Of a DNA stretch of 64,000 nucleotides, positions 6,859-50,217 are shown piece after piece; the stretch's first letter is position 1, and every line of letters begins with the position of its first letter. The notes beneath the pieces were generated by a model. The model was not told the DNA's origin. It was given only the letters and a program-made list of their open reading frames with translations, and did not search any database. The DNA comes from a virus (Duplodnaviria; Caudoviricetes): positions 1 to 64,000 of the IMG/VR virus record IMGVR_UViG_3300014059_000008; one strand, written 5' to 3'. The translations under genes and the position numbers were made by a program.

Positions 6859-7886
6859 TACAGATCCAGGAACCTGACGCGAGAACCAGCCGGGTACTGC
6901 GTGCCATCGAGCGGGTTGTTCCTCATGATCTCGTCAGCTCGTGACGCATCCTGGTACAGCTCCATGGCAATCTCGCACGCGGTCATGTCTCTGTCGGTGA
7001 AGTACTCGATGAGCCGCGCCGACCGCTCTTGCGCTTCTAGTCCAGCACGAACAACGTCAGCTTGAACGCCCGTAACCTGCTGAAGCACCTCTGCGTTGTC
7101 AGCGAGTTGCAGCTCTGGCGTGTCCAGAATCTCCGCAAATCGCGCCTTGACCCGCTCAGCCTCGGCCTTGATGTCGTCAGCGGTAGCCTCTTCATTCCGT
7201 AGGAACTCCTCAAATGATGCGACAAGCTCAGTGAACGGCGGCAACTTCGCGGCGATGTTGACGATAGCGCGCGATGGGAACTGCGGGATCTGCGGGTTAG
7301 GCGGAACGGGCGTCTGCAGCAGGTTCTCGACTTGGCTGATCTGCGAGAGCACATTGGCAATCGCGCCCTGAATCGGGTTGAACCGCGTAGGTGCTGGTGC
7401 TGCGAGCGCTGCAACGGCTTGGTCTACAGCCGCTGCTGCAGACTTGGCACCGGCCAGCGGGTTGCTTTCAACGATGTCGAGCTGCTTACCGTTGGGGTCG
7501 AGTACTTGCTCAAAGACGTACTGAACCTTGCAACCGTTCAGTACGTCGGTGGTGTACTTCGGAGAGAACTGCGAGAAGTGGCCGTAGACTTCGCCGTACA
7601 GCTGCGTGCGCAGATAGCCGTTGCGCGGCAGCTGGCAGCGGCGACGCATCTGCATGAACTTCTGTGGCCACTGGTTTTCATAGCCATCCACGCCGTTGAC
7701 AAAAGCCATCTCGCCCGTGATTACCAGCGGAGCGACCGACAGCGCCTCGGCATCCTGGTAGCGCCGATGGGGGCTACGGTACTTGGACCACTCCATGAGA
7801 AAGCCGGACTCGTCCCACTGTGTGATGGGGAACGGGCCTATGCCGTCGTAGTAGGCTGGCGCTCTGTACTTGTTCTCATCGGCCAT
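6858..7886 (-). CDS. Mu gp43/N-like 'DNA circularisation' tail protein with C-terminal LysM-like domain
   Basis: N-terminal PAYYDGIGPF; C-terminal IAMELYQDASRADEIMRNN...YPAGSRV. Confidence 0.8.
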   Translation of the reverse strand: MADENKYRAPAYYDGIGPFPITQWDESGFLMEWSKYRSPHRRYQDAEALSVAPLVITGEMAFVNGVDGYENQWPQKFMQMRRRCQLPRNGYLRTQLYGEVYGHFSQFSPKYTTDVLNGCKVQYVFEQVLDPNGKQLDIVESNPLAGAKSAAAAVDQAVAALAAPAPTRFNPIQGAIANVLSQISQVENLLQTPVPPNPQIPQFPSRAIVNIAAKLPPFTELVASFEEFLRNEEATADDIKAEAERVKARFAEILDTPELQLADNAEVLQQVTGVQADVVRAGLEAQERSARLIEYFTDRDMTACEIAMELYQDASRADEIMRNNPLDGTQYPAGSRVRFLDL

Positions 7887-41404: not shown

Positions 41405-41613
41405 TGCGCAAATCGTCGCCTTGTAGCCCTGTTGTGCATACGTCTATTCCGCGCGGCATCTTGGCGCTGCATCAGGACTAGAAGTTTCCTGGTCTGTCGC
41501 GGGGTCAGTTCTGCATCATCCAGGTCTGCGCGCGATATGCCGGTCAGTATGCAGCGCTCGGTCAGGATGTCGTAGCGGCCATGCTGTAGACGATGGGCGG
41601 TGTGGGGCTTCAT
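41377..41613 (-). CDS. Small basic protein
   Basis: ATGA-coupled ORF. Confidence 0.5.
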   Translation of the reverse strand: MKPHTAHRLQHGRYDILTERCILTGISRADLDDAELTPRQTRKLLVLMQRQDAARNRRMHNRATRRRFAQWRIGSCGQ

Positions 41614-41822
41614 CGCGGCGGCCTATTTTTCTTGGCCCACGCTGCGGTCAGCTTAAAAAGAGCCGTTTCTGCTTTCGATTGTCGATCGAGTTCTTCTTCA
41701 GTCGGGTCATCCACAGTGAGATCGTCAAGCTCCACAAGCAGGTCCAAAACCTTGTGTAGTGCGCGCCCCTGATCACAACTGGCCGACAACTCGACGATCG
41801 CTTGGACTTCTTCGTCATCCAT
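41610..41822 (-). CDS. Small acidic protein, first CDS after the tRNA-like cluster
   Basis: GGAGGA RBS; D/E-rich. Confidence 0.55.
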   Translation of the reverse strand: MDDEEVQAIVELSASCDQGRALHKVLDLLVELDDLTVDDPTEEELDRQSKAETALFKLTAAWAKKNRPPR

Positions 41823-41847
41823 CTACTTGTTCCTCCTGCCAGAACCA

Positions 41848-41922
41848 AGGTGCGCACCGGACTCGAACCGGTAATTCCCATCAACTAGTGATCGGCCTTT
41901 TACCAATTAAAGGTAGCGCACC
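41848..41922 (-). tRNA. tRNA-like RNA 3: full cloverleaf with non-canonical anticodon loop
   Basis: GGTGCGC-TA-CCTT/AAGG-C-CGATC[ACTAGTT]GATGG-GAATT-ACCGG[TTCGAGT]CCGGT-GCGCACC; no U33 or purine 37; G:G mismatch in stem; no encoded CCA. Confidence 0.75.
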
Positions 41923-41929
41923 AAAAGAG

Positions 41930-42013
41930 TGCATCGATCGGGTGATACATGAGGCAGAACGCTCTAAGGCCCAGCCGTAGATCTCCTGACGGCAACACAG
42001 CCCGACCGATGCA
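41930..42013 (-). ncRNA. Structured element between tRNA-like RNAs
   Basis: 13-bp closing stem TGCATCGGTCGGG/CCCGATCGATGCA enclosing a GCCGT/ACGGC hairpin. Confidence 0.5.
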
Positions 42014-42014
42014 G

Positions 42015-42115
42015 TGGACCACCCAGGCTTTGAACCTGGATTATAGCAGCCGTTGGTGAGTCGCTTTCGCTGTGACTCTGCGCCGCTCTAGTTTTACCGG
42101 TTAAACTAGTGGTCT
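42015..42115 (-). ncRNA. tRNA-like RNA 2: anticodon arm replaced by long GNRA-capped hairpin
   Basis: AGACCAC-TA-GTTT[AACCGGTA]AAAC-(51 nt)-CCAGG[TTCAAAG]CCTGG-GTGGTCC-A. Confidence 0.65.
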
Positions 42116-42317
42116 GATTTGCCGGGATTGCCCACCCGGCCTGGGTTGAGAGGTCTTCCAATTCTCTGTCTGACCGCAACTCCGTCAGTTGAGGCCCTAT
42201 CCGGCTTAGGGTTGCCTGCCTGTTTTTGGTACGAGTCCCACGTACTAGCGATGCGCAATATCGCTGCCAGACTGTTACGATTTTAGGGTTCCAAAGCTGG
42301 TCATAACGTCATCCCTG

Positions 42318-42378
42318 CGACCCGTCCAGGGATCGAACCTGGGACCAAGAGCTTGCTCTACCGCTGAGCTAACAGGTC
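42318..42378 (-). ncRNA. tRNA-like RNA 1: tRNA-Lys-like with anticodon stem deleted (61 nt)
   Basis: GACCTGT-TA-GCTC[AGCGGTA]GAGC-AAGCTCTTGGTC-CCAGG[TTCGATC]CCTGG-ACGGGTC-G. Confidence 0.7.
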
Positions 42379-42495
42379 AAACTACGCTCCGATGGTATCG
42401 ATCATATCGAATGCTCGGAGCAACACATACCGCAAGTTTAGCCCAGACGGGCGCGCTCGATACCTTCACGCTAGACGACCGACCTCACTTGGGCA

Positions 42496-42524
42496 TAAGT
42501 ACACAGGTTGCCTAGTAGTGTCAA
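42496..42524 (-). promoter_or_regulatory. Sigma70-type promoter facing the tRNA-like cluster
   Basis: TTGACA-17 nt-TACTTA. Confidence 0.65.
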
Positions 42525-42529
42525 TATCA

Positions 42530-42970
42530 TTATTTCGGCGACCCGTAAGCCAACCATCCAGCATCGACGCCAAGAGCCGCTGCGATGCGCTCCACTACTG
42601 CCCGCGCTGGATCGGTGCGGCCTGATTCATAGCTTCCGACTACCGTGGGGCTTATCTTGGCAGCAGCGGCCAGCTTGCGGATGCTTATCTTGGCCATGGT
42701 CCGCGTGCGCAGCAGGCGATCTGGGAACGTATCTGCGGCTTTTGGTGCTTGCTTTTGCAGCGGCTGTACACGCGGCTCCAGCTCGTAGCCTAGCGCTGTC
42801 AGGATCTTTGACAGGGTGCCGATCTGCATTGTGGTTTTGCCGCCGAGCACCTGGGTGATGTTCGCAGGCGCGCAGCCCATGCGGCGTGCCAGCTCGCGGC
42901 GGCTGACTTTGTGCCGCGTCATCAGCTCGCAGATAATCTCTGTGATGGCTACTTGGGTGCGGTCAGTCAT
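42530..42970 (-). CDS. Regulator with two tandem XRE HTH domains
   Basis: VSRRELARRMGCAPANITQVLGG and ISIRKLAAAAKISPTVVGSYESG...LGVDAGWL. Confidence 0.85.
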   Translation of the reverse strand: MTDRTQVAITEIICELMTRHKVSRRELARRMGCAPANITQVLGGKTTMQIGTLSKILTALGYELEPRVQPLQKQAPKAADTFPDRLLRTRTMAKISIRKLAAAAKISPTVVGSYESGRTDPARAVVERIAAALGVDAGWLAYGSPK

Positions 42971-49602: not shown

Positions 49603-50217
49603 TTACCTCTGCCTGCTGAGTAGATCCAGCGCTGAGCCGTACTGTGGGCTTCCAGTCGAGAGTGTGCCCGCGCAGTAGATGGACACACCGTCGTCAAACT
49701 GGTTCTTGCCGCAGATGCAGTGGTGCCGGGTCGCAATCTTGACCATCACCCCTTGCGCCTCGACGTGGGCAATCAGCGCATCAGCTACCGAGCGCGCGAT
49801 GCTTTCCGGCGTAGTCAGCCGTCGAGCAAACATCTTGACCAGCCGGTTCATGTTTCCAACGGGTACGGTCCGCCGGTCGCCAGTCCCCAGGTGCTTGGGG
49901 ATGTACGCAATCTTGACCGCCACGCTCATCGGCTGCAGGTGCTCGGCGCAAGTGCTAGCAGATCCCAGGCTTCTGACGGTGACAATGTTCGACGTTGGCA
50001 GCGACACTCGGTATGGGCTCGTGCATTCCGTGGTATGCGCCAAAACATCGGCGGCATTTTGGAAGTAACCTTCGGTAGCCCGTAAATGCGATTGTGCTGC
50101 GTTCTGAGCCGTGTCTAAAACGAGCCGTTCCCGCTCCTCTGGTGGGATTCCAAGCTCGTCTAGCAGGCTTTCTAGGATTGTTCTAATGCGGTTCTCGTCT
50201 CTCATGTGTGCCTCCAA
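49603..50217 (-). CDS. folE: GTP cyclohydrolase I-like protein (divergent)
   Basis: STCAEHLQP..IAYIP..RLVKMFARRL..E.IARSVADAL..GVMVKIATRHHC. Confidence 0.75.
   Translation of the reverse strand: MEAHMRDENRIRTILESLLDELGIPPEERERLVLDTAQNAAQSHLRATEGYFQNAADVLAHTTECTSPYRVSLPTSNIVTVRSLGSASTCAEHLQPMSVAVKIAYIPKHLGTGDRRTVPVGNMNRLVKMFARRLTTPESIARSVADALIAHVEAQGVMVKIATRHHCICGKNQFDDGVSIYCAGTLSTGSPQYGSALDLLSRQR

What the first reader, a model, noticed from the sequence alone, without database searches (positions are those of the whole stretch)
41848..42524. Promoter-driven operon of three tRNA-shaped RNAs, each with a differently disabled anticodon arm (candidate tRNA-mimic/decoy system)
Seen: ~650 nt with no credible CDS in an otherwise gene-dense genome, downstream of TTGACA-17-TACTTA. 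It contains three cloverleafs (42318-42378, 42015-42115, 41848-41922) whose acceptor stem, TA linker, 4-bp D stem with GG loop and 5-bp T stem with TTCRA loop all pair properly. Only the anticodon arm is abnormal: deleted, replaced by a long hairpin, or with a non-canonical loop. Random decay would not be expected to spare the elbow three times. Known: the tRNA elbow and acceptor stem are what RNase P and the CCA-adding enzyme recognise, and anticodon nucleases (PrrC, RloC, PARIS AriB, VapC) are anti-phage effectors. Inference: these are non-decoding RNAs that act as uncleavable decoys or as RNase P/Z processing signals releasing the structured RNAs between them.
Basis: partly seen in the sequence, partly recalled or inferred. 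Interest (0 to 1): 0.9.

Follow-up and report, generated by a model that had tools for sequence, protein, structure and literature searches.

The report
Phage RNA array with tRNA look-alikes
The three tRNA-shaped elements are real, but one is simply an asparagine tRNA gene that lost 11 bases in this one phage. The other two are conserved tRNA look-alikes in a swappable array of structured phage RNAs, and they most likely mark cutting sites rather than act as decoys.

Summary
All three tRNA-shaped elements exist on the minus strand. They lie in a roughly 650-nt non-coding stretch behind a conserved TTGACA -35 box.

- **T1 (42378-42318)** is not a designed mimic. Seven related contigs and three further sequencing runs carry an intact tRNA-Asn(GUU) at this position. 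This phage alone lacks 11 nt of the anticodon arm. The deletion is real in the source reads (65x).
- **T2 (42115-42015)** is a conserved tRNA body with a long GAAA-capped hairpin in place of the anticodon arm. That arm is invariant. In other relatives the whole module is replaced by an unrelated UUCG-capped hairpin.
- **T3 (41922-41848)** is conserved in six of the eight related contigs that reach its position. Two acceptor pairs covary. It never has U33, and it sits 25 nt before the next start codon.

The RNAs between these elements are conserved and structured. The best reading is a modular phage RNA array in which tRNA-shaped modules serve as RNase P/Z processing marks, like plant mitochondrial t-elements. 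This is inferred, not shown. I found no evidence for the decoy idea.

In passing I found a widespread phage family of 57-59-nt tRNA look-alikes without an anticodon arm, often just upstream of genes. One lies in a cultured Polaribacter phage. This scan has noted similar tRNA relics ahead of phage genes on other DNA (e1-5894674, e1-5856060, e1-2499602).

The parts
42496..42524 (-). Putative promoter: -35 TTGACA (42524-42519), 17-nt spacer, weak -10 TACTTA (42501-42496)
   Evidence: The sequence is shown. TTGACA and the 17-nt spacing are invariant in window, L018, L023, L026 and L030, while the flanks and the -10 hexamer vary. It does not pass the consensus promoter scan.
42379..42495 (-). Conserved structured leader (GCTCCGA...TCGGAGC hairpin; GGTATCGA can pair with TCGATACC in its loop)
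   Evidence: 80-88% identical to relatives. Alignment, fold. The pairings were read from the sequence and are not supported by covariation.
42318..42378 (-). T1: tRNA-Asn(GUU) gene lacking 11 nt (5' strand of the anticodon stem plus most of the loop). The deletion point lies between 42353 and 42354.
   Evidence: Rfam tRNA 44.9 bits with the arm missing. Homologues in L018, L022, L023, L026, L027, L028 and L030 are intact tRNA-Asn, 58-64 bits. Runs X2 and X4 show 'put in behind 42353: TAACAGGCTCC'; X16 shows the intact arm as a loose end at 42354. The source run X1 confirms the deletion at depth 65.
42216..42317 (-). Conserved RNA module ('mod92'): hairpins GCGAT-ATTGCGC-ATCGC and GTACG-TGGGACT-CGTAC inside a closing stem
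   Evidence: 97% identical to the relatives that carry it, against 71-80% for the flanking protein genes at DNA level. It is replaced by a different module in L030, X2 and X4. Function unknown; the fold z-score is not significant.
42116..42220 (-). Spacer with an invariant CCCTAAGCCGGATAGGG hairpin, a variable middle part, and the GCCGGG-TGGGCAAT-CCCGGC hairpin
   Evidence: Alignment. The last hairpin keeps pairing through a compensatory one-pair indel (window 6 bp, relatives 5 bp). The middle part is highly variable (table 3).
42015..42115 (-). T2: tRNA body (acceptor, D arm, T arm) with a long hairpin (stem, internal loop, stem, ACA bulge, GAAA tetraloop) in place of the anticodon arm
   Evidence: Fold z = -3.5. 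Present in L018, L022, L023, L028, L029 and L031. The long arm is 100% identical. Two pairs at its base covary: window UA/UA against GC/GC in L022, L023, L028 and L029; L018 is mismatched. The whole module is replaced by a 73-nt UUCG-capped hairpin in L026, L027, L030, X2, X4 and X16.
41923..42014 (-). sp2: 85-nt hairpin RNA with a 12-13-bp closing stem, followed by CUCUUUU
   Evidence: Fold z = -2.9. The closing stem covaries: window GGTCGGG/CCCGATC against GACAAGG/CCTGTC in L018, L023 and L031. There are also compensatory indels in L026 and L030.
41848..41922 (-). T3: conserved tRNA-shaped RNA with a non-canonical anticodon arm (G.G mismatch, C33, U37, discriminator U), 25 nt upstream of the next start codon
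   Evidence: ARAGORN call. Alignment A3 shows acceptor pairs 1:72 (AU/GU/GC) and 3:70 (CG/UA) covarying and all other arms invariant. Loop positions 33, 34 and 38 vary (the X2 variant is).
41610..41847 (-). Conserved UUGGUUCUGGCAGGAGG linker (ribosome-binding site) and the downstream 70-aa ORF (start 41822)
   Evidence: The linker is conserved in all relatives although the downstream ORF differs. ORF list; no Pfam match.

Best explanation
The stretch is a promoter-driven, modular non-coding RNA array of a wastewater phage. It is built from a tRNA gene, tRNA-derived modules and stable hairpin RNAs.

In this phage the tRNA-Asn(GUU) gene (T1) was inactivated by a recent, strain-private 11-bp deletion.

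T2 and T3 are conserved tRNA-shaped RNAs that most likely do not decode. They keep the acceptor stem and the D/T elbow, which host RNase P, RNase Z/E and the CCA-adding enzyme recognise. I propose that they act as punctuation. Cleavage at their ends would release the conserved structured RNAs between them. At T3 it would also set a short, defined 5' end for the downstream mRNA, whose ribosome-binding site starts about 10 nt after T3.

Shown: the anatomy, the private nature of the T1 lesion, conservation, covariation and module swapping. Inferred: transcription as one unit, cleavage by tRNA-processing enzymes, and that T2 and T3 are not aminoacylated.
For: - **T1:** seven related contigs carry an intact tRNA-Asn(GUU) at this position, and three other runs do too (the 11 nt inserted in X2 and X4, a loose end showing the intact arm in X16). 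The deletion is confirmed in the source reads.
- **T3:** compensatory changes at acceptor pairs 1:72 and 3:70. D arm, T arm, variable loop and anticodon stem are invariant. It is 91-93% identical to relatives where unconstrained neighbours are 79-88%. It always lies 25 nt before a start codon, even though the downstream ORF differs.
- **T3 identity:** discriminator U with a class I body fits none of the bacterial identity rules I know for NAG anticodons (established knowledge, not tested). U33 is never present (C in most haplotypes, A in L030).
- **T2:** the long arm is invariant beside a hypervariable spacer. The module boundaries coincide with the tRNA ends. It is exchangeable with a long UUCG hairpin.
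- **Intervening RNAs:** sp2 and the GCCGG hairpin covary, including compensatory indels.
- **Promoter:** the -35 box is invariant across five haplotypes.
- **Second case in the clade:** a tRNA-like element with a shortened anticodon arm (L023:340-407, 55.7 bits) lies 23 nt before another ORF in a relative.
- **Weak hint of expression:** a wastewater metatranscriptome holds contigs of a relative's array. DNA carry-over is not excluded.
- **Precedent:** plant mitochondrial t-elements are degenerate tRNAs, one type lacking the anticodon arm, that direct RNase P/Z cleavage at mRNA ends (PMC5499578, section 25).
Against: - No RNA ends were observed, so cleavage is inferred only.
- T2 has only three haplotypes, which gives little covariation. 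L018 tolerates two mismatches at the base of its long arm.
- The minimum-energy fold of T3 is a rod, not a cloverleaf, and no variation discriminates between the two.
- T3 loop positions 35-36 (AG) are constant while position 34 is U, A or G. All three anticodons are Leu. That pattern would also fit a decoding tRNA.
- L022 and L031 have lost most of T3, so it is dispensable in some relatives.
- The -10 hexamer is poor, and the scan found no consensus promoter.
- If processing were the only role, the perfect conservation of T2's 40-nt arm would be unexplained.
Confidence: 0.5

Rival explanations
1. Plain decay. The locus is a remnant phage tRNA cluster. T1, T2 and T3 are all tRNA pseudogenes without function, and their conservation only reflects short divergence times.
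For: T1 is demonstrably a private deletion. L022 and L031 have lost most of T3, and L026, L027 and L030 lack T2. An anticodon-armless element in L005 and L009 evolves at about the flank rate, 93% against 94.7%.
Against: T3 shows two compensated acceptor pairs. In the window lineage, the 3' strand changed at two positions to match a new 5' strand. T2 (91-95%), T3 (91-93%) and mod92 (97%) are much better conserved than the neighbouring spacers (79-88%) and the flanking protein genes (71-80% at DNA level).
Confidence: 0.15
2. Anti-defence decoys. The tRNA-shaped RNAs bind and neutralise host tRNA-targeting defence enzymes such as anticodon nucleases or acceptor-end toxins.
For: The array lies in an accessory, fast-swapping early region with small ORFs, which is typical of anti-defence loci. 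T3 loop positions 33, 34 and 38 vary among otherwise near-identical copies, as expected under an arms race. Phage tRNAs are known to counter PARIS (PMC11464382).
Against: The known countermeasure tRNAs are working, decoding tRNAs. T1 and T2 have no anticodon loop to be recognised by an anticodon nuclease. T1's state is private to one sample. No RNA-repair genes (RtcB, CCA-adding enzyme) and no Ro/TROVE protein are in the genome. There is no direct evidence of any kind.
Confidence: 0.12
3. T3 is a working, unusual tRNA that reads Leu CUN codons. The anticodon is UAG in this phage and AAG or GAG in relatives. T2 is an unrelated structured RNA.
For: Across five haplotypes, positions 35-36 stay AG while wobble position 34 is U, A or G. 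The rest of T3 is under strong constraint with a covarying acceptor stem. It is the only tRNA that ARAGORN finds in the 91-kb genome.
Against: U33 is absent in all haplotypes (C33, or A33 in L030). Position 37 is U. A G.G mismatch sits in the anticodon stem. The class I body with discriminator U73 does not fit bacterial LeuRS identity, which needs A73 (established knowledge). The Rfam tRNA model gives no hit.
Confidence: 0.13
4. The whole 570-nt stretch is one large ornate phage RNA of the GOLLD/ROOL kind, with embedded tRNAs. T2's GAAA loop and the CCUAAG...UAGG hairpin would serve as tertiary or inter-subunit contacts.
For: GOLLD and ROOL are phage RNAs found near tRNA islands, sometimes with tRNAs inside the linker (10.1101/2024.12.08.627333; PMC5737381). 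The size, the dense conserved hairpins and a possible pseudoknot in the leader fit. In L041 a GOLLD RNA ends 3 nt before an armless tRNA look-alike.
Against: There is no Rfam match to GOLLD, ROOL or any other family at E up to 10. Modules are swapped independently among relatives. The receptor-like hairpin persists where the GAAA-bearing T2 is absent.
Confidence: 0.08

Closest known systems
Plant mitochondrial t-elements (tRNA-like processing signals; PMC5499578 section 25, citing Forner et al. 2007)
   Same: They are degenerate tRNAs that keep the acceptor/T-arm, and one type lacks the anticodon arm. They sit at mRNA ends. T3 and the L023 mini-arm element lie 23-25 nt before start codons.
   Different: They belong to organelles, not phages. 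For t-elements, cleavage by RNase P/Z has been shown; here it is only inferred. T2 carries a long, conserved extra arm that t-elements lack.
Ordinary phage tRNA genes and tRNA pseudogenes (Rfam RF00005)
   Same: T1 is a tRNA-Asn(GUU) gene by homology, and its relatives are intact at 58-64 bits. The array sits in a phage early or accessory region, like many phage tRNA clusters.
   Different: T1 lacks the anticodon arm. T2 and T3 do not reach the tRNA model threshold and have non-decoding or aberrant anticodon arms that are conserved across relatives.
GOLLD and ROOL large ornate phage RNAs (RF02032, RF03087)
   Same: Both are phage-encoded, highly structured non-coding RNAs next to or around tRNA genes, with unknown function.
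   Different: There is no covariance-model match. The array here is modular, with independently exchanged parts.
[quoted passage not shown]
   Same: These RNAs keep the tRNA acceptor/T-arm elbow and drop or replace the anticodon arm with a variable extension, as T2 does.
   Different: There is no Rfam match. T2 keeps the canonical cloverleaf connectivity with a true D arm. The phage has no Ro/TROVE partner gene.
RNase P-processed phage regulatory RNAs (P1/P7 C4 RNA, P4 CI RNA; cited in PMC5499578)
   Same: They are small phage RNAs cut out of a leader transcript by RNase P, next to immunity or regulatory genes. Here the array follows a double-HTH regulator gene.
   Different: Those RNAs are hairpin-type substrates without a T loop, and they act by antisense pairing. 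No complementary target was found here, and there is no Rfam C4 match.

Membership tests
Canonical tRNA (RF00005) | Scores above the Rfam gathering threshold (29 bits) | tested here: inconclusive
   T1 scores 44.9 bits, so it passes, but with the anticodon arm deleted. T2 and T3 give no hit at E up to 10.
Canonical tRNA (RF00005) | 5-bp anticodon stem with a 7-nt loop carrying U33 and a purine at 37 | tested here: not met
   In T1 the arm is absent (11-nt deletion). In T2 it is replaced by a 50-nt hairpin with a GAAA loop. T3 has a 4/5 stem with a G.G mismatch, C33 and U37 in all haplotypes, with A33 in L030.
Canonical tRNA (RF00005) | 7-bp acceptor stem, D arm with GG, T arm with TTCRA | tested here: met
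   T1 pairs 7/7 and T3 7/7 with covariation. T2 pairs 6/7 (1:72 mismatched in most haplotypes)..
t-element-like processing signal | tRNA-like acceptor/T-arm structure without a working anticodon arm, placed at the end of another RNA or mRNA | tested here: met
   T3 lies 25 nt before the start codon in all relatives. T2 is flanked by conserved structured RNAs. The L023 mini-arm element lies 23 nt before an ORF.
t-element-like processing signal | Cleaved by RNase P and/or RNase Z in vivo | not testable with these tools
   Only contigs, not raw reads, were available for the RNA run, so no RNA ends could be read.
Phage counter-defence tRNA (e.g. T5 tRNA-Lys against PARIS) | A decoding tRNA of the same specificity as the host tRNA that the nuclease cuts, with a variant anticodon arm | tested here: not met
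   T1 and T2 have no anticodon. T3 lacks U33 and has no canonical identity set.
GOLLD / ROOL | Match to the family covariance model | tested here: not met
   No hit in the window at the gathering threshold, or at E up to 10 in 41600-42800. The same tool found GOLLD in L041 at 263 bits.
YrlA / Y RNA | Ro60 (TROVE) gene in the genome, and an Rfam match | tested here: not met
   No TROVE domain in the 91-kb genome. No Rfam match.
Anticodon-armless phage tRNA look-alikes (family seen here, A6/R1) | 57-59 nt: 7-bp acceptor, TA, D arm, 8-9-nt linker ending in a variable-loop-like GGTC/GTGC, T arm | tested here: inconclusive
   T1 scores 56.4 bits with model R1, against 35-47 bits for its intact homologues. 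But its linker is 12 nt and it arose by a private deletion, so it resembles the family without shared descent or shown function.

The most novel reading that the evidence does not exclude
Phages widely use tRNA bodies stripped of a working anticodon arm as functional RNA parts: 'phage t-elements'. Under this reading T2, T3, the L023 mini-arm element and the 57-59-nt armless family are maintained as processing, stabilising or protein-binding modules at the 5' ends of genes or beside large structured RNAs. The armless family comprises 38 IMG/VR loci with the search pattern, 22 distinct well-paired elements, plus cultured Polaribacter phage Danklef. It is often found right after a terminator and 11-33 nt before terS or tail genes, and once 3 nt after a GOLLD RNA. 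T1 would then be a newborn example of how such elements arise.
Probability: 0.3. Interest if true: 0.75.

Novelty: new variant of a known kind. Interest (0 to 1): 0.5.

Why it matters
For this window, the result corrects an attractive but over-read story. One of the three 'mimics' is a fresh knockout of an ordinary tRNA gene.

What remains is still useful. T2 is a conserved natural 'tRNA scaffold' RNA, and T3 is a conserved tRNA-shaped 5' leader. Both sit in an array whose modules are exchanged between related wastewater phages.

Together with the armless look-alikes seen in many other phages, including a cultured one, this points to a testable idea. Phages may recycle the tRNA fold as a signal for host tRNA-processing enzymes, to cut and stabilise their own transcripts. 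That would be a bacterial-virus counterpart of mitochondrial tRNA punctuation and t-elements. It would also explain many 'tRNA-OTHER/undetermined' calls in phage annotation.

Tried and rejected
- **Close relatives by single proteins in IMG/VR** (HTH, 293-aa protein, helicase): none found.
- **GenBank phages by DNA:** no match for the whole region or for T3. For T2, only a 23-nt chance match.
- **Further IMG/VR pattern scans:** the T2 21-mer, the sp2 conserved block and the T3 D-arm all gave nothing.
- **L024 and L025** (T2 19-mer hits in a 101-kb contig and a gammaproteobacterial MAG) are chance matches inside coding sequence.
- **T2 as an intron-containing tRNA:** ARAGORN with introns allowed gives three mutually inconsistent calls (Leu, Ala, Gly), none with U33. 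Rejected.
- **T2's arm as a K-turn or bulge-helix-bulge intron:** rejected by inspection of the strands.
- **GAAA tetraloop docking into the CCUAAG...UAGG hairpin:** the hairpin stays invariant in relatives that lack T2. Not supported.
- **T3 as an amber suppressor (CUA):** the register does not give a closed stem, and relatives lack CTA.
- **T3 loop pairing with T2's ACTAGT:** no covariation in relatives.
- **attP reading:** no tyrosine integrase in the genome, and relatives carry the full tRNA.
- **Link to queuosine:** the phage has GTP cyclohydrolase I but no TGT or QueC.
- **Consensus promoter/terminator scan:** nothing found.
- **Parts of the stretch without cover in runs X2, X4 and X16** are not evidence of absence.
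- **Not attempted:** structure and complex prediction tools, because no protein partner is proposed.
Full report
**Setting.** The window is the first 64 kb of a 91.4-kb IMG/VR virus record, about 91% complete. It comes from a wastewater sample. Genes around the finding all run on the minus strand:
- large terminase, 48795-47188 (Pfam Terminase_6N/6C)
- an SF2 helicase, 45191-43458
- a double-HTH regulator, 42976-42530
- the roughly 650-nt gene-free stretch
- small ORFs of unknown function from 41822

The genome has no tyrosine integrase, RtcB, CCA-adding enzyme, Ro/TROVE, TGT or QueC.

**The observation.**
- T1 (42378-42318) matches the Rfam tRNA model at 44.9 bits. Four nt stand in place of 15 anticodon-arm positions. 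It folds exactly into acceptor, D and T arms.
- T2 (42115-42015) folds into a tRNA body whose fourth arm is a long hairpin: stem, 3x7 internal loop, 5-bp stem, ACA bulge and a GAAA-capped 2-bp tip. The z-score is -3.5.
- T3 (41922-41848) is the only tRNA that ARAGORN calls in the whole genome, as Leu(tag). It has C33, U37 and a G.G mismatch, and the Rfam tRNA model does not reach E = 10.
- No other Rfam family matches anywhere in the stretch.
- TTGACA-17-TACTTA is present, but the -10 hexamer is poor and the consensus scan finds no promoter or terminator.

**Relatives.** Single-protein scans of IMG/VR and DNA searches of GenBank phages found nothing. Relatives came from three routes:
- homologues of the helicase led to contig L018
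- a metagenome scan with a 19-mer from T2 gave L022 and L023
- a 63-aa hydrophobic ORF lies between T2 and T3 in those relatives, and its homologues led to L026-L031

Public runs from 13 studies, mostly wastewater and sludge, hold parts of the stretch. I laid four of them on it.

**T1 is a private lesion.** In L018, L022, L023, L026, L027, L028 and L030 the element homologous to T1 is a normal tRNA-Asn(GUU), scoring 58-64 bits. The window lacks exactly 11 nt: the 5' strand of the anticodon stem and most of the loop.
- Contigs of two other DNA runs show the 11 nt as an insertion behind 42353.
- The RNA-library run shows the intact arm as a loose end at 42354.
- An independent assembly of the source run reproduces the deleted form at depth about 65, with no variant.

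The remaining 61 nt differ from relatives only by changes that keep the structure. One of these is a compensated pair, A6-U67 to G6-C67. That fits a tRNA that worked until recently. It cannot tell whether the deleted form has any use.

**T2 is a conserved module.** It occurs in six contigs with only three full-length haplotypes (L031 adds a fourth, partial one).
- The 60-nt stretch that holds the long arm and T arm is invariant in window and L018; L022, L023, L028 and L029 differ only in the variable loop and at one T-loop position.
- Differences lie in the D loop, the T loop, position 72, and two base pairs at the foot of the long arm. Those two pairs covary: UA/UA in the window, GC/GC in L022, L023, L028 and L029. 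L018 is a mismatched hybrid.
- The neighbouring spacer, by contrast, has 21 differences in 100 nt in runs X2 and X4.
- In L026, L027, L030 and in runs X2, X4 and X16 the module is replaced, almost exactly at its tRNA borders, by an unrelated 73-nt hairpin with a 10-bp stem and a UUCG cap.
- ARAGORN with introns allowed gives inconsistent calls without U33. I reject an intron-containing tRNA.

**T3 is conserved and constrained.** It is present in L023, L026, L027, L028, L029 and L030. It is truncated in L022 and L031.
- In alignment A3 the variable columns are two covarying acceptor pairs (1:72 AU/GU/GC and 3:70 CG/UA), one mismatch in L028, and loop positions 33, 34 and 38.
- In the window lineage the small ORF upstream of T3 was deleted. 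The 5' acceptor strand changed, and the 3' strand carries the two matching changes. This argues for selection on the stem in this very phage.
- The loops are ACUAGUU, ACUAGUC, ACAAGUC, ACGAGUC (run X2) and AAGAGUC. There is never a U33. Positions 35-37 are constant and position 34 is U, A or G.
- All three anticodons would be Leu. But the class I body with discriminator U does not fit bacterial LeuRS identity rules (my knowledge, not tested). I therefore rank 'decoding tRNA' as a rival only.
- T3 is always followed by UUGGUUCUGGCAGGAGG and a start codon 25 nt downstream, although the ORF differs between the window and its relatives.

**The RNAs in between.**
- The 102-nt module after T1 is 97% identical to relatives. 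The flanking protein genes are 71-80% identical at DNA level. L030, X2 and X4 carry another module there.
- sp2 is an 85-nt hairpin. Its closing stem covaries and shows compensatory indels.
- The GCCGG(G) hairpin keeps pairing through a one-pair indel.
- Upstream of tRNA-Asn, relatives hold four alternative states:
  - nothing (window)
  - a hairpin (L026 and L027)
  - a 68-nt tRNA-Trp(CCA)-like element with a reduced D arm (L018 and L030)
  - a 68-nt tRNA look-alike with a 4-bp/4-nt mini anticodon arm, 23 nt before a 108-aa ORF (L023)
- The -35 TTGACA box and the 17-nt spacing are invariant in five haplotypes, although the gene upstream differs.

So the unit is a modular, promoter-headed array of structured RNAs in which several tRNA-shaped parts do not decode.

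**Interpretation.** The evidence supports a processing-signal reading better than a decoy reading.
- For processing signals: the tRNA ends coincide with module borders. T3 and the L023 element sit at fixed short distances before start codons. The elbow and acceptor stem are what is conserved. Plant mitochondrial t-elements provide a precedent (PMC5499578).
- Against the decoy reading: T1 and T2 have no anticodon loop, T1's state is private, and the phage has no RNA-repair genes.
- Cleavage, CCA addition and charging are all untested.
- The perfect conservation of T2's long arm suggests a further, unknown role such as protein binding or a tertiary contact.
- A GOLLD/ROOL-like single large RNA is not excluded, but it lacks any model match and fits poorly with independent module swapping.

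**Side finding.** Pattern scans of IMG/VR were made for the T1-type D arm and T loop at shortened spacing. They returned 38 loci.
- In 22 distinct elements the acceptor stems are unrelated in sequence but pair at 98.6%. These were selected for at least 6/7 pairs; 24 of the 37 elements parsed reached 7/7 without selection.
- The linker between the D and T arms is 8-9 nt in 21 of 30 well-paired cases. It ends in a variable-loop-like GGTC or GTGC.
- Many lie 11-33 nt upstream of an ORF. In three lineages that ORF is terS (three different PHROG families), and in one it is a tail gene following a terminator-like hairpin.
- One lies 3 nt after a GOLLD RNA.
- Cultured Polaribacter phage Danklef_1 has such a 58-nt element. 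It is annotated 'tRNA-OTHER Undet(NNN)', sits after a terminator hairpin, and lies 13 nt before the next ORF. Its description paper does not discuss it.
- I found no paper describing this family. A 2026 preprint describes other bacterial tRNA mimics that drop the anticodon arm.

Caveats: the search could only find anticodon-arm losses. One pair of relatives shows no excess conservation. T1 scores 56.4 bits with a model of this family, but it arose by a private deletion and has a 12-nt linker.

**Verdict.** T1 is ordinary. T2, T3 and the array are a new variant of known kinds: phage tRNA clusters, tRNA-like processing elements and tRNA mimics. Earlier notes of this scan on other genomes describe similar tRNA relics ahead of phage genes.

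Noticed in passing
L002-L013 and L032-L057 (IMG/VR loci), e.g. L035:6685-6742, L008:5344-5401, L055:5491-5548: A family of 57-59-nt tRNA look-alikes without an anticodon arm. They have a 7-bp acceptor stem (different in every lineage, all paired), TA, a D arm, an 8-9-nt linker and a T arm. Many lie 11-33 nt upstream of an ORF (terS in three lineages, a tail gene in one). Model R1 was built from 22 of them.
   Followed up: partly
L058:595-652 (Polaribacter phage Danklef_1, MT732458.1 43546-43603): A cultured phage carries a 58-nt armless tRNA look-alike annotated 'tRNA-OTHER Undet(NNN)'. It lies directly after a terminator hairpin and 13 nt before the next ORF. This is a ready experimental system.
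   Followed up: partly
L041:6773-7223: A GOLLD RNA (263 bits) ends 3 nt before an armless tRNA look-alike (7165-7223). That element lies 64 nt before a terminase small-subunit gene.
   Followed up: no
L023:340-407: A 68-nt tRNA look-alike (Rfam tRNA 55.7 bits) whose anticodon arm is shrunk to a 4-bp stem with a 4-nt loop, 23 nt upstream of a 108-aa ORF. It is a second non-decoding tRNA body in the same array family.
   Followed up: partly
L018:6393-6460 and L030:321-388: A 68-nt tRNA-Trp(CCA)-like element with a canonical anticodon loop (CUCCAAA) but a reduced D arm. ARAGORN misses it at default settings. It is absent from the window.
   Followed up: no
L023:1286-1477 (also L022, L026-L031); absent between window 41923 and 41922: A 63-aa ORF with two hydrophobic segments lies between T2/sp2 and T3 in all relatives and is cleanly deleted in the window phage. 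It has no Pfam match.
   Followed up: partly
L026:3030-3140, L027 and L030 (same slot as window 42014-42117): A 73-nt hairpin (10-bp stem, inner 6-bp stem, UUCG tetraloop) replaces T2 at nearly the same borders. L030 also carries a different module of about 190 nt, with a TTCGAAT T-loop hairpin, in place of window 42220-42311.
   Followed up: partly
window 42190-42206 (minus strand CCCTAAGCCGGATAGGG): An invariant hairpin whose strands (CCUAAG / UAGG) resemble the GAAA tetraloop receptor. It is conserved even where the GAAA-bearing T2 is absent, so a T2 contact is not supported.
   Followed up: partly
window 49603-50217 (minus): The phage encodes GTP cyclohydrolase I (PF01227, E = 4e-22) upstream of the terminase genes. 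No TGT or QueC is present in the genome, so its pathway context is unclear.
   Followed up: partly
L005:6412-6487 against L009:916-991: The tRNA-Met(CAT) next to an armless element differs between two 95%-identical contigs by a cluster of changes in and around the anticodon stem.
   Followed up: no
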